Shown: positions 15,415-38,518, counted from the stretch's first letter. The stretch: 64,000 nt of DNA from Phormidesmis sp. (GCA_965248535.1 CBDFJR010000002.1:896001-960000), one strand, 5' to 3'. The notes: generated by a model from the sequence alone, not told the origin. Program-made: numbers and translations.

Positions 15415-15987
15415 ATGCCATACCGCACGATCGCCTTTGAACCTGGCAATTTCTATCATCTGTATAATCGGGGCAATAATCGCCAAACCATCTTCTTTGA
15501 GCGCGAGAATTATCTTCATTTCCTGCGGTTGGTACGGCGATATTTGACACCTGAGGAAGTGGAAATTTTAGCCTACTGCTTGATGCCGAATCACTACCAT
15601 CTGCTGGTGCATTTCAAAGCTGGCAATCTTAGCGAACAAATGAAGGTATTATCTCTGGCATACACTAAAGGGATGAATGTTCGCTACAACCGGGTTGGTT
15701 CGTTGTTCCAGGGGCGGTTTTGCTCGATTCAAGTCGATCGCGAGTCATATCTGGTTCATCTGGTACGCTACATTCACTTGAATCCAGTCAAGGTTGGGTT
15801 GGTGATGCATCCAAGAGAATGGGAGTTTTCGAGTTATCGGGAGTATGCGGGGCAGCGACAGGGAACGTTGCCGAAACTGGAACGGGTGCAGGCTCTAACA
15901 GTCGAGAAGGATGCCTATCAGATGTTTCTAGAAGATCAGTCGTTGCCCCAAGATGCCAAAATGCGATCGTTTATGTTAGATGAGTGA
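15415..15987 (+). mobile_element. REP-associated tyrosine transposase (RAYT, HUH/Y1 family)
   Basis: YHLYNRGNNRQTIF, YCLMPNHYHLL (HUH), LFQGRF, YIHLNPVK, W.FSSY; palindromes on both sides. Confidence 0.9.
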
Positions 15988-36566: not shown

Positions 36567-37247
36567 TCAGGCTGGCTCTAAGCCCGGTGGCAATGGCTCT
36601 TGACAGGTTTGATGGACTTCGACCAGACGTTTGAACAGCCAGGGATAATTTTTTTGATAACTGGAAATTCGGGCCAGGGGACTGAGCAACGCCGCCGCCG
36701 CAATATCTGCCACACTTAAGCGATCGCCTACCAAAAAAGGCTGATCTTGCCAGCGCAGTCTCAACGCCTCTAAGCCAGTCACTAGACGCTTTTCGGCCAA
36801 CTCAACGCTGGCTGAATTAATGCGATATTGCCGCTTCACGACTTGAATCACCATCTGACTCATCAGCGATGGATCAAGGGATTTGCCCTCGCCCGATCGG
36901 AACTGATAATAGACAAATCGAGACGCAATGCCGAGACTTTCATCAAGCCAGTCTTCGAGCAGCCAAGCCTGCGATCGCTCCTCCGCATCTTTTGGAATCA
37001 GGGGCGGCTCAGGACAATAACTCTCTAGAAAGTGAAAAATTTGGGTCGAGTCGGCGATCGCCACGGGCTGTCCTTCAATCTGCGGCATCAACACCGGAAG
37101 GGTAGTCAATCCGCCTGTGAGGGGCTTGAGTTTGAGGGCGTGCAGTCCAGGCGTGAGATTTTCGACTTGATAGGGAATTTGCTTATAGCCCAGTGCCAAT
37201 CGAGCTTTGCGACAATAGTGAGACGTGCTGAATTGCAGAAGCAGCAT
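36567..37247 (-). CDS. Glutathione S-transferase-family protein
   Basis: QFSTSHYCRKARLAL, TLPVL, DST.I, FLVGDRLSVADI. Likely start is the ATG at 37247; the longer ORF call runs into the IS remnant. Confidence 0.88.
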   Translation of the reverse strand: MLLLQFSTSHYCRKARLALGYKQIPYQVENLTPGLHALKLKPLTGGLTTLPVLMPQIEGQPVAIADSTQIFHFLESYCPEPPLIPKDAEERSQAWLLEDWLDESLGIASRFVYYQFRSGEGKSLDPSLMSQMVIQVVKRQYRINSASVELAEKRLVTGLEALRLRWQDQPFLVGDRLSVADIAAAALLSPLARISSYQKNYPWLFKRLVEVHQTCQEPLPPGLEPA

Positions 37248-37299
37248 AGGAATTAGAGATGCCAACGCGTTATTTTCTCGAAATGTCATGGAAATGGGA

Positions 37300-37757
37300 G
37301 AGCCTAAGAACCCGCAAAACCCATCGTGCTCTAGCCATGGGATGTAGCGGGTTCTCGCGCCTGCGACCGCAGGCAGAGTCAATCGTTGGTATAATCATAC
37401 TGTCAAGGTGAAACTCCTTTGCCGTCGTGAAACCGTTAAGACACACCTTCAGGCATCAAGTTAATAGGGCAAAGAGCGGCGAAAACTCTTAAAACAGTCA
37501 GGGATAGCAACGTCTTCCCAACACCAGAGAACCGAATATTGTTTGTGAGTCCGAAAACGTAAGGCGGGGCACGCCTAAACGCTAGGTTCGTATCCTAGTA
37601 CGCTTGGGGAGATCGACTCTCTGGGATTCGCTAAGTTAGACTCGTCAATTGGTGCCATGGCACGGTTGAAAGGTTTAAGCACTGCCGCAAGGATAGTGAA
37701 TTTTAAGGTCATTCGTAGAGCCAAGAATCCCACTCTCTTGAGAGGTGGGAGTGTCAA
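37300..37757 (+). mobile_element. Non-autonomous IS200/IS605-family element without tnpA/tnpB, retaining a putative omegaRNA
   Basis: Right end GAAT-CCCACTCTC-TT-GAGAGGTGGG-AGTG-TCAA follows the IS608-type guide/hairpin/cleavage layout. Left-end hairpin CCCAT...ATGGG is nested in AGAACCCGC/GCGGGTTCT. No credible ORF. Left boundary uncertain. Confidence 0.75.
37401..37757 (+). ncRNA. Putative structured RNA: TnpB omegaRNA scaffold with a 5' structured extension
   Basis: TATAAT at 37390-37395. Hairpins AGGCG-GGGCA-CGCCT, CTAGG-TTCGTAT-CCTAG and a GCAA-loop stem. The segment ACGCTTGGGGAGA...CAAGAATCCC resembles tnpB 3' ends. Confidence 0.55.
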
Positions 37758-37792
37758 TTTAAATGAGTGCCATTGAGTTGAGGGTTTTTGAC

Positions 37793-38518
37793 ATGACTCT
37801 TTCGATCGATCAACTCGATACTGAGCTTTTTTATCCTGACGCTGATGGTTTACCAATGGCAGAGAGCGACCCCGCCCGCGATTATCTCCTCTATGGGGTC
37901 GAAACTCTGAGCCTCTATTTTCAAGCCCGATCGGATGTCTATGTCTCTGGAAATCTATTTATCTACTACAAGCGAGGCGTGCCCGATGCGGTCGTTGCGC
38001 CCGATGTGTTTGTGATTTTTGGGGTCGAAAACAAAAAGCGCCGCAGCTATAAAGCCTGGGAAGAAGGCGGCAAATTGCCCGGCTTTGTGTTAGAAATCAC
38101 TTCTAAAACGACTCAAGAAAACGATGAAGTAGATAAGCCCAAAAAATATCAAAGTCTGGGAGTCACCGAATATTTTCAATATGACCCGACGGGAGATTAT
38201 TTGAGACCTCAGCTAAAAGGGGTGCGCCTGATTGAAAATCGCTATCAGCCGATCGAGGGTCATTTCTCAGATCAGACATTTTCACTGCACAGTCAAACGC
38301 TGGGGCTAGATCTGCGGCTCACCGATGGAGAACTGAGATTTTATGAGCCTGCAACCGATCGACGGCTCTTGAGTCACGCCGAGCTAGACGCAGCCCGACA
38401 GCAAGCCGAACAAGCTCAACAGCAAGCTGTTCCTCGATTGTTGGAGTTAGGGCTAACAGTAGAGCAGATTGCCGCAGCATTAAGCTTGTCTATTGAAGCA
38501 GTCAGACAAATTTCTTGA
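37793..38518 (+). CDS. Uma2-family protein
   Basis: YPDADGLPMAESD, VAPDVFV, FVLEITSKTT, EYFQYDP. Confidence 0.9.
   Translation: MTLSIDQLDTELFYPDADGLPMAESDPARDYLLYGVETLSLYFQARSDVYVSGNLFIYYKRGVPDAVVAPDVFVIFGVENKKRRSYKAWEEGGKLPGFVLEITSKTTQENDEVDKPKKYQSLGVTEYFQYDPTGDYLRPQLKGVRLIENRYQPIEGHFSDQTFSLHSQTLGLDLRLTDGELRFYEPATDRRLLSHAELDAARQQAEQAQQQAVPRLLELGLTVEQIAAALSLSIEAVRQIS

What the first reader, a model, noticed from the sequence alone, without database searches (positions are those of the whole stretch)
37300..37777. Protein-less IS605-type element that appears to express an orphan TnpB guide (omega) RNA with an extra pseudoknotted 5' module
Seen: ~460 bp between divergent GST and Uma2 genes, with an IS608-like right end (GAAT + hairpin + TCAA at 37754-37757), a left-end hairpin, a perfect TATAAT (37390) and no tnpA/tnpB. 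37561-37757 resembles the omegaRNA at tnpB 3' ends. 37401-37560 holds crossing complementarities, AAGGTG(37405)/CACCTT(37444) and CTTTGCC(37417)/GGCAAAG(37468), i.e. a possible pseudoknot, plus several GNRA-like loops. Established: the TnpB guide is the host sequence just beyond the right end; here that is TTTAAATGAGTGCCATTGAG, the Uma2 5' region. Inference: a minimal RNA-only element that borrows TnpA/TnpB in trans, or a domesticated guide that could regulate the Uma2 gene. The 5' module is not explained by standard omegaRNA models.
Basis: partly seen in the sequence, partly recalled or inferred. Interest (0 to 1): 0.75.

Follow-up and report, generated by a model that had tools for sequence, protein, structure and literature searches.

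The report
Protein-less transposon carrying a guide RNA
This is a 468-base protein-less relative of IS200/IS605 insertion sequences that carries its own promoter and a long structured TnpB-type guide RNA, a known kind of element whose conserved extra 5' RNA domain is new.

Summary
Window 37290-37757 is a 468-bp insertion: three same-genus genomes have the intact empty site ...ATGTTAT|TTTAGACG.... Its left end is 86-90% identical to that of a complete tnpA+tnpB IS200/IS605 element in the same genome, and its right end 85%. It encodes no protein. An extended -10 box (TGGTATAAT, 37387-37395) precedes a ~356-nt RNA ending exactly at ...GAGTGTCAA (37757).

At least 55 loci in diverse cyanobacteria share this layout. 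On 54 aligned copies, 96% of cells pair and 44 of 77 pairs show compensatory changes. The 3' ~200 nt matches the tnpB 3' ends that encode guide (omega) RNA.

It is most likely a PATE-type non-autonomous element supplying a guide RNA to TnpB in trans, a concept already in print. This copy has a mutated target motif (TCAT for TTAT) and may be immobile. A dedicated role in Uma2 regulation is unlikely.

The parts
37286..37289 (+). Target or transposon-adjacent motif position, TCAT in this copy
   Evidence: Empty sites in G062, G060 and G065 read ...ATGTTAT|TTTAGACG. TTAT also precedes the same left end in 5 other copies. TTAT+C precedes 36 of 40 type-2 left ends.
37290..37381 (+). Left end (LE type 1) with subterminal hairpins at 37307-37355 and 37359-37374
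   Evidence: It is 86-90% identical to the LE of the tnpA+tnpB element at G000:C2:2302805 and of three protein-less copies. Inverted repeats are listed.
37387..37395 (+). Extended -10 promoter box TGGTATAAT
   Evidence: T, A and T of TAnnnT are at least 90% conserved at this place in 54 aligned copies. No -35/-10 pair was found by the scan. The start near 37402 is inferred.
37402..37757 (+). Predicted ~356-nt RNA scaffold running to the right-end boundary
   Evidence: Family homology starts here and stops exactly at GTCAA. 77 pairs, 96.3% of cells paired, 44 pairs with compensatory changes, 0 of 500 shuffles as high. G-U pairs are frequent, which indicates RNA on the + strand.
37405..37455 (+). 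5' domain: hairpin P1 (37405-08/37416-19) and helix P2 (37420-23/37452-55) enclosing conserved AUCGUGAAAC and AGACACAC
   Evidence: Pair 37420:37455 is U-A in 39 copies and C-G in 15, with none unpaired. Pair 37406:37418 is A-U 39, G-C 7. Part of this region was the search pattern, so its invariance is partly by construction.
37473..37499 (+). H-type pseudoknot: S1 37473-76/37486-89, S2 37478-80/37497-99, A-rich loops
   Evidence: Both stems covary in A1. Across subfamilies there are five fully paired S1 versions (AGAG/CUCU, AGUG/CACU, CGUG/CACG, AGCG/CGCU, AGGG/CCUU) and four S2 versions.
37501..37519 (+). Variable hairpin H4
   Evidence: All 5 pairs show compensatory changes.
37558..37612 (+). 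Start of the part shared with tnpB-linked guide RNAs: hairpin with invariant GGGCA loop (37562-37576), a second hairpin, and the ACGCUUGGGGAGA motif (37600-37612)
   Evidence: Alignment with tnpB 3' ends. nhmmer block hits inside tnpB 3' ends at E 1.2e-5 to 9e-4. 7 of 8 hairpin pairs covary.
37611..37714 (+). Expanded middle domain closed by helix 37611-18/37707-14 (~110 nt, against ~45 nt in tnpB-linked versions)
   Evidence: Many compensatory pairs, for example 37646:37668 is C-G in 27 copies and U-A in 26.
37723..37757 (+). Right end: AAGAAUCC, hairpin 37729-37749, GAGUGUCAA ending in TCAA
   Evidence: It is 84-85% identical to the right ends of tnpB elements at C5:1505226 and C2:2304534. 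The hairpin covaries. Flanks diverge immediately after it in all copies.
37758..37777 (+). Flanking host DNA that would be transcribed as the guide
   Evidence: Its position follows from the right-end boundary. It differs at 2 bases from the empty-site sequence of the congeners. Its use as a guide is inferred.

Best explanation
Window 37290-37757 is a non-autonomous, protein-less IS200/IS605 (IS608-like) element of the PATE type. Shown: it is a discrete insertion 3' of TTAT without target duplication. Its ends match those of an autonomous tnpA+tnpB element in the same genome. It belongs to a fixed-length family spread through cyanobacteria. That family has a conserved extended -10 box and a ~356-nt covariation-supported RNA structure on the + strand that stops at the right-end boundary. 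The 3' ~200 nt of this RNA is homologous to tnpB 3' ends. Inferred from the published IS200/IS605 mechanism: TnpA supplied in trans binds the end hairpins and moves the element as single-stranded DNA. The internal promoter transcribes the scaffold through the right end into flanking DNA, giving an omega-RNA whose guide is 37758 onward. TnpB from other elements loads it and cuts the TTAT-flanked empty site left after excision, so recombination restores the element. Each copy needs its own RNA gene because the guide is site-specific. The 5' ~150 nt (P1/P2, an H-type pseudoknot and a hairpin) is an RNA domain found here only in protein-less copies. I think it most likely acts as a structured leader that stabilises the trans-acting RNA or aids its processing or loading; this is low-confidence inference. 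This copy has TCAT in place of TTAT and may no longer be mobile or protected. Its promoter probably now reads into Uma2.
For: Three same-genus genomes carry the empty site, which defines 37290-37757. The LE is 86-90% and the RE 84-85% identical to elements carrying Pfam Y1_Tnp and OrfB_IS605+TNB genes. The genome holds 26 above-cutoff tnpB-type and 11 Y1 transposase matches. 55 loci share the 5' core, and in 48 of them the right end lies 322-347 nt downstream; 4 of the other 7 are cut by contig ends and 3 have a variant end. TnpB similarity occurs in only 2 of 62 genome loci and 1 of 80 metagenome loci, and the one examined (L173) is a nested insertion. No ORF is conserved. The structure has 96.3% of cells paired, 44 of 77 pairs compensatory, 0 of 500 shuffles as high, and slid controls at 28-44%. 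A profile of the 3' part hits tnpB 3' ends in two blocks. Near-identical copies with different flanks occur within one assembly (L046, L077). RNA-library contigs of relatives cover 37414-37757 and run 11-63 nt past the right end, in one study; this is a weak hint only. Meers et al. state that PATEs often encode omega-RNAs acted on in trans by TnpB (preprint PMC10055086, passages read).
Against: No Rfam family matches, including on 8 related loci. Single-sequence folding is not more stable than shuffles. No canonical -35 was found. The guide-adjacent pseudoknot that defines omega-RNAs cannot be verified: both candidate partners, loop GGGCA 37567-71 and GACAC 37440-44, are invariant, so neither can covary. 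GACAC is also missing from the tnpB-linked versions and from the G039 copy. The middle domain and the 5' module differ from the genome's tnpB-linked RNAs, so binding by those TnpBs is assumed, not shown. No transcript from this organism was seen: the RNA runs are contigs of relatives and may include DNA. This copy has a mutated TAM and a ~10% diverged left end.
Confidence: 0.85

Rival explanations
1. The element has been domesticated at this locus. Its RNA or its promoter exists to control the Uma2 gene immediately downstream.
For: The RNA reads toward Uma2. The insertion splits a ~75-bp divergent promoter region and leaves ~35 bp upstream of the conserved ATG at 37793. The TAM is mutated, which would freeze the element in place.
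Against: The insertion is absent from 3 congeners that keep both genes. All 54 aligned copies sit in unrelated flanks. The occupied locus has TCAA, not TTAT, beside the guide match, so a TnpB-type complex should not engage it; this follows from the published TAM requirement. No nuclease-dead tnpB neighbour is present. Promoter read-through would be a side effect of insertion, not a dedicated function.
Confidence: 0.06
2. The RNA is not a TnpB guide. It is a cargo RNA with another role, such as a ligand-sensing or regulatory RNA, carried between IS605-type ends.
For: The 5' module has highly conserved unpaired stretches and a compact pseudoknot typical of ligand- or protein-binding RNAs. It is linked to at least two different 3' scaffolds and at least four left-end types. 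No Rfam match was found.
Against: The 3' half is homologous to tnpB 3' ends and always ends at the transposon boundary, as guide RNAs do. No terminator or expression platform follows the 5' module.
Confidence: 0.05
3. It is only a decaying deletion remnant of a tnpB element, and its interior has no function.
For: The two copies in this genome are 81% alike. This one has a mutated TAM, and the other ends in TCAC rather than TCAA. A 66-nt fragment of the 5' module lies at C2:574179-574244.
Against: The family keeps a fixed length and covarying helices across several cyanobacterial orders. There is no trace of tnpB coding sequence. The promoter box is conserved. Near-identical multi-copy members exist elsewhere.
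Confidence: 0.04

Closest known systems
PATEs (palindrome-associated transposable elements) of IS200/IS605 that encode omega-RNAs, as noted for Geobacillus stearothermophilus by Meers et al. 2023 (preprint PMC10055086, passages read)
   Same: It is protein-less. It has LE and RE hairpins shared with autonomous relatives. The RNA gene abuts the right end. It must rely on TnpA and TnpB in trans.
   Different: It belongs to a cyanobacterial family with its own conserved extended -10 box. The scaffold is ~356 nt, about twice the part shared with tnpB-linked RNAs. The 5' domain with an H-type pseudoknot is not found in the tnpB-linked versions of this genome. The same RNA/right-end module is joined to at least four left-end types.
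ISDra2 TnpB omega-RNA (Nakagawa et al. 2023, PMC10097598, passages read)
   Same: The guide is at the 3' end just beyond the right end. The scaffold is multi-stem. A segment next to the guide (UGUC, 37752-37755) is complementary to an upstream hairpin loop, as in the ISDra2 pseudoknot.
   Different: The ISDra2 functional scaffold is 116 nt and overlaps the tnpB gene, and its 5' region is disordered and dispensable. Here the 5' region is conserved and structured, and no gene is overlapped. There is no detectable sequence similarity, and the pseudoknot is untested here.
IS608 of Helicobacter pylori (recalled from the IS200/IS605 literature; mentioned passages)
   Same: Insertion is 3' of a tetranucleotide (TTAC in IS608, TTAT here). 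The right end finishes in TCAA. Subterminal hairpins are present and there is no target duplication.
   Different: IS608 carries tnpA and tnpB. This element carries neither.
IStrons and IStron-end PATEs (Zedaveinyte et al. preprint 10.1101/2023.11.20.567912, passages read)
   Same: A structured RNA at the 5' side of an IS605-type element is combined with a guide RNA at the 3' side.
   Different: No group I intron is detected. The element has its own promoter, so it does not depend on host transcription and splicing.

Membership tests
IS200/IS605 non-autonomous element (PATE) | No transposase or nuclease gene inside the element | tested here: met
   Only short ORFs with no conserved position in the family. 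There is no tblastx signal to tnpB beyond the right end.
IS200/IS605 non-autonomous element (PATE) | Left and right ends with subterminal hairpins, homologous to those of an autonomous element | tested here: met
   The LE is 86% and the RE 85% identical to the tnpA+tnpB element at G000:C2:2302805-2304574. Hairpins are shown.
IS200/IS605 non-autonomous element (PATE) | Precise insertion 3' of a short target motif, without target-site duplication | tested here: met
   Empty sites in 3 of 7 same-genus genomes read ...TTAT|TTTAGACG. Two others hold only the GST flank, and two incomplete ones gave no match.
IS200/IS605 non-autonomous element (PATE) | Mobilised by TnpA in trans | not testable with these tools
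   Only indirect support: near-identical copies in different flanks within one assembly, and at least 7 matches at contig ends in G088.
TnpB omega-RNA | RNA scaffold ending at the right-end boundary and homologous to tnpB-linked 3' regions | tested here: met
   Shared hairpin, ACGCUU..GGAGA motif and right end. nhmmer gives E 1.2e-5 to 9e-4 inside tnpB 3' ends.
TnpB omega-RNA | Conserved secondary structure | tested here: met
   44 of 77 pairs have compensatory changes and 96.3% of cells pair.
TnpB omega-RNA | Pseudoknot between guide-adjacent nucleotides and an upstream segment | tested here: inconclusive
   There are two complementary candidates, both invariant. GACAC is absent from tnpB-linked copies and from G039, which favours the GGGCA loop.
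TnpB omega-RNA | Transcript carrying a ~16-nt guide from the flank | tested here: inconclusive
   RNA-library contigs of relatives extend 11-63 nt past the right end. This is one study, contigs only, and DNA carry-over is possible.
TnpB omega-RNA | Bound by TnpB and directs TAM-dependent DNA cleavage | not testable with these tools
No complex prediction was run.
Rfam-curated RNA families (including IS605-orfB motifs, HEARO, group I intron) | Match to a curated covariance model | tested here: not met
   0 matches at E <= 1 on window 36800-38300. One chance hit on 9 related loci.
Domesticated TnpB-type guide or regulator (TldR-like) | Fixed synteny with a target gene and a nuclease-dead tnpB partner | tested here: not met
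   The insertion is absent in congeners. Flanks are unrelated in 54 copies. There is no tnpB neighbour.

The most novel reading that the evidence does not exclude
The conserved 5' domain is a dedicated functional RNA module of protein-less guide-RNA transposons. Its core is a 27-nt H-type pseudoknot with A-rich loops, placed at or near the RNA 5' end in several subfamilies. It would be a 5' cap-like structure that resists exonucleases or recruits TnpB, letting a trans-acting guide RNA compete with cis-encoded ones. Alternatively it could be a small sensor that gates guide production. It travels with different omega-RNA scaffolds and different left ends, as an independent module would.
Probability: 0.25. 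Interest if true: 0.7.

Novelty: new variant of a known kind. Interest (0 to 1): 0.5.

Why it matters
Most work on TnpB guide RNAs treats them as by-products of the tnpB gene. Here the guide RNA is a free-standing gene with its own promoter, released from coding constraints, and spread through many cyanobacteria in several combinations of ends. That supports the idea that transposase, nuclease and guide RNA are exchangeable parts. It also gives a natural set of about 70 sequence variants for defining what a TnpB scaffold needs. The unexplained 5' pseudoknot domain is a concrete, testable candidate for how a trans-acting guide RNA stays stable or gets loaded. It could be useful for engineering compact TnpB editors. 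At this locus, the insertion probably rewired transcription of a Uma2 endonuclease-like gene.

Tried and rejected
- **tRNA, tmRNA or a known RNA family.** ARAGORN found 0 genes and Rfam 0 matches.
- **Single-sequence folding as evidence of structure.** The z-scores were near 0, so it is uninformative.
- **Interior as decayed tnpB coding sequence.** blastn and tblastx against 27 tnpB 3' regions matched only the last ~50 nt. A 5' profile hit no tnpB.
One arm is not supported and the other is conserved without covariation.
- **Pairing of GACAC (37440-44) with GUGUC (37751-55) as the guide-adjacent pseudoknot.** It is invariant, so untestable. GACAC is absent within 520 nt upstream in the 5 tnpB-linked elements and is replaced by a hairpin in G039. 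I therefore do not adopt it.
- **A full-length covariance model.** Not attempted, because the alignment exceeds the 400-column limit. Only the 5' module was modelled (R1).
- **The metagenome pattern scan.** It was too loose: only 18 of the 80 fetched loci were real members by R1.
- **RNA runs.** No cover of 37200-37391 or beyond 37775 in X1-X4, and contig ends at 37414-37427 and 37564-37568, are not used as evidence of transcript ends.
- **Earlier scan notes.** None applied.
- **Literature.** Searches found no description of this cyanobacterial family. Subscription journals and bioRxiv supplements were not visible.

Full report

The region lies between a glutathione S-transferase gene on the minus strand and a Uma2-family gene on the plus strand. 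In the GST ORF the Pfam GST_N domain begins at residue 48, so the likely start is near 37247.
- TATAAT at 37390-37395, preceded by TG, giving TGGTATAAT.
- GAAT at 37725-37728.
- An imperfect hairpin at 37729-37749.
- TCAA at 37754-37757.
- Left-end inverted repeats at 37307-37355 and 37359-37374.

Rfam gave no match at E <= 1 and ARAGORN found nothing. Folding the single sequence is no better than shuffles (z -0.30 and +0.36). The case therefore rests on comparison with other sequences.

**It is a discrete insertion with IS200/IS605 ends**

Within the window's genome, 37288-37381 recurs at 86-90% identity in four places:
- One copy is the left end of a complete element at G000:C2:2302805-2304574. 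That element has a 134-aa Y1 transposase and a TnpB (Pfam Y1_Tnp, OrfB_IS605 and TNB domain). Its right end matches 37717-37757 at 85%.
- Three copies are near-identical ~520-bp protein-less elements with the same kind of right end.

Four further tnpB genes share this right-end family. The genome holds 26 above-cutoff TnpB TNB-domain matches and 11 Y1 transposase matches.

Three of 7 same-genus genomes (G062, G060, G065) have the GST and Uma2 flanks joined directly...TTCTCGAAATGTTAT|TTTAGACGAGTGCC.... Two others hold only the GST flank. Two incomplete genomes gave no match. The element is therefore 37290-37757 (468 bp), inserted 3' of TTAT with no target duplication. This is the signature of IS608-like elements.

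In this copy the motif now reads TCAT. The right flank differs at two bases from the empty site. One of those changes creates the ATG at 37763, which the congeners lack, so the real Uma2 start is probably the conserved ATG at 37793.

**It belongs to a large protein-less family**

The interior (37407-37730) has a second copy in the genome at 81% identity (G000:C2:598391-598718). That copy has a different left-end type, one that matches the end beside another tnpA.

BLAST over 90 genomes of the taxonomic family found long matches in six other genomes. These include at least 7 matches at contig ends in G088.

A pattern from the 5' core found 55 loci in GTDB species genomes. By record title they are Microcoleus, Leptolyngbyaceae, Phormidesmis, Snowella, Richelia, Chroococcales, Pseudanabaena, Scytonema and Potamolinea. 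In 48 of the 55, the right-end terminus lies 322-347 nt downstream of the core. Of the other 7, four are cut by contig ends and three have a variant ATGTCA terminus.

Other family-level results:
- TnpB similarity appears in only 2 of 62 of these loci and in 1 of 80 metagenome loci, a nested insertion.
- No ORF is conserved. The longest ORF is 53 aa at the median, with position and strand varying.
- Forty of 55 copies carry left-end type 2, and 36 of those 40 are preceded by TTAT+C.
- This window and G088 carry type 1. Two more types exist.

The promoter-RNA-right-end block is thus the conserved unit, recombined with at least four left ends.

**The RNA**

I aligned 54 distinct copies (A1). Four loci cut by contig ends and two duplicates were dropped first.
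- Homology starts just upstream of a TGnTAnnnT box, whose T, A and T are at least 90% conserved.
- Homology ends exactly at GAGTGTCAA. After that every flank is different.

RNAalifold predicted 68 pairs, 37 of them with compensatory changes. I refined the structure using mutual information. The refined structure has 77 pairs in 16 helices:
- 96.3% of cells pair.
- 44 pairs have changes on both sides, covering 423 cells.
- None of 500 column shuffles reaches the observed values.
- Versions with partners slid by 1-3 columns pair in only 28-44% of cells.

Frequent G-U pairs point to RNA on the + strand rather than a DNA hairpin. One caveat applies: the 5' core was the search pattern, so its invariance is partly by construction. 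Also, related copies are not independent.

**Which part is a standard guide RNA?**

The segment from 37558 to 37757 aligns with the 3' ends of the genome's tnpB genes. Shared features are a hairpin with an invariant GGGCA loop, the ACGCUU..GGAGA motif, a closing helix, AAGAAUCC, the right-end hairpin and GAGUGUCAA.

A profile of this part hits inside tnpB 3' ends in two blocks, at E 1.2e-5 to 9e-4 for the first block. The middle domain is about 110 nt here against about 45 nt in the tnpB-linked versions.

A profile of the 5' part hits only the two protein-less copies and a 66-nt fragment at C2:574179-574244.

**The 5' module**

It contains four elements:

| Element | Window coordinates | Covariation |
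|---|---|---|
| Hairpin P1 | 37405-08 / 37416-19 | one covarying pair |
| Helix P2 | 37420-23 / 37452-55 | its variable pair is U-A in 39 copies, C-G in 15, none unpaired |
| H-type pseudoknot | S1 37473-76 / 37486-89; S2 37478-80 / 37497-99; A-rich loops | both stems covary |
| Variable hairpin H4 | 37501-19 | all 5 pairs covary |

A covariance model of this module (R1) was run over the 90 family genomes. It found the known copies plus diverged ones in G039, G027 and G085. It also confirmed 18 of 80 metagenome loci.

G039 and G027 join a related 5' module to a different 3' scaffold and right end. In two metagenome copies (L143, L116) the RNA would begin directly at the pseudoknot. Across these subfamilies S1 occurs in five fully paired versions and S2 in four. 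The pseudoknot is therefore the best-supported and most widely shared piece.

AAGGT/ACCTT stays complementary but never covaries, and it competes with P1. CTTTGCC/GGCAAAG pairs in 78% of cells with no compensatory change, while its central base covaries perfectly with a different partner.

**The guide-adjacent pseudoknot**

In ISDra2, nucleotides -5 to -3 pair with a segment in the loop of stem 1 (PMC10097598, passages read). Here UGUC (37752-37755) is complementary to two segments:
- The GGGCA hairpin loop (37567-71), which pairs in 53 of 53 copies that have letters there; three of these show G-U replaced by A-U.
- GACAC in the P2 loop (37440-44), which pairs in 98.5% of cells.

Both are invariant, so covariation cannot decide between them. 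GACAC is absent within 520 nt upstream in the five tnpB-linked elements. In G039 it is replaced by a hairpin. The loop is present in all versions. I favour the loop but leave the feature as inconclusive.

**Expression**

No RNA data from the organism itself were found. Four metatranscriptome runs of one study (at most three samples) hold contigs of relatives at 85-99% identity. They cover 37414-37757. Two contigs of 313 and 324 nt span both the 5' module and the scaffold. Several run 11-63 nt beyond the right end into unrelated sequence. These are contigs and may include DNA. They cannot show starts, ends or strand, so this is a weak hint that family members are transcribed as one unit through the right end.

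**Mechanism and what is inferred**

Shown: the insertion, the shared ends, the absence of genes, the conserved promoter box, the structure, and the homology of the 3' half to tnpB 3' ends.

- TnpA in trans moves the element.
- The RNA reads out into the flank.
- TnpB in trans uses it to cut the TTAT-flanked empty donor site, so the element is restored by recombination.

A protein-less element gains from carrying its own RNA gene because the guide is specific to each insertion site. The occupied site is protected because TCAA, not TTAT, adjoins the guide match. The role of the 5' domain is open. I think a stabilising or loading leader most likely, at low confidence.

This particular copy has TCAT at the target motif, and its left end is about 10% diverged from the other copies. 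It may be immobile. Its promoter probably now supplies transcription into Uma2, whose ~75-bp divergent promoter region it split.

**Novelty**

Meers et al. already wrote that PATEs often encode omega-RNAs acted on in trans by TnpB, so the kind is known. My searches did not find three things in print:
- This cyanobacterial family.
- Its autonomous promoter.
- The conserved 5' pseudoknot domain and its association with several scaffolds and left ends.

Those searches cover open-access text only. Rfam has no model for it.

Noticed in passing
G000:C5:1478692-1479213, C2:1965371-1965890, C2:1792740-1793261 (outside the window): Three near-identical ~520-bp protein-less elements share this left end and right-end family but have a different interior. 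It includes the GGGUAGGGCAUACCC hairpin and a TGTGATAAT box. In one copy the loop of the right-end hairpin is the reverse complement of that in the other two. Motif hits suggest two more copies at C2:982691 and C5:1703113.
   Followed up: partly
window 37758-37800: The ATG at 37763 that opens the listed Uma2 ORF is created by a base change specific to this genome. Congeners read GACG there. The conserved start is probably the ATG at 37793.
   Followed up: partly
G000:C2:574179-574244 (outside the window): A solitary fragment of the 5' module (P1/P2 region) lies in an intergenic region, with nothing recognisable of the rest of the element.
   Followed up: partly
window 37473-37499 compared with tnpB genes at G000:C5:1505269-1506459 and C2:2252xxx: The pseudoknot core (GCGGCGAAAAC) resembles the tnpB codons for the conserved NAARN motif (GCAGCGAGAAAC), which lie just upstream of the GGGCA hairpin in tnpB-linked elements. 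The 5' module might descend from that coding region. The similarity is short and not significant by nhmmer.
   Followed up: no
L173:440-1100; L077: Nested arrangements were seen. In L173 a family member sits between the left end and the start codon of a tnpB element. In L077 a member lies between N- and C-terminal fragments of a tnpB on the opposite strand.
   Followed up: partly
L012 (G040), L060/L082, L067: Insertions of 46, 39 and 16 nt occur in family members. The 46-nt and 16-nt ones fall in predicted loops (between the two pairs of helix H10, and in the P2 loop). The 39-nt one lies inside the right-end hairpin. This suggests tolerated expansion sites.
   Followed up: no
window 15454-15777: A weak Y1 transposase match (46.8 bits, 198-aa open frame) lies elsewhere in the window. 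It may be a REP-associated tyrosine transposase type gene.
   Followed up: no
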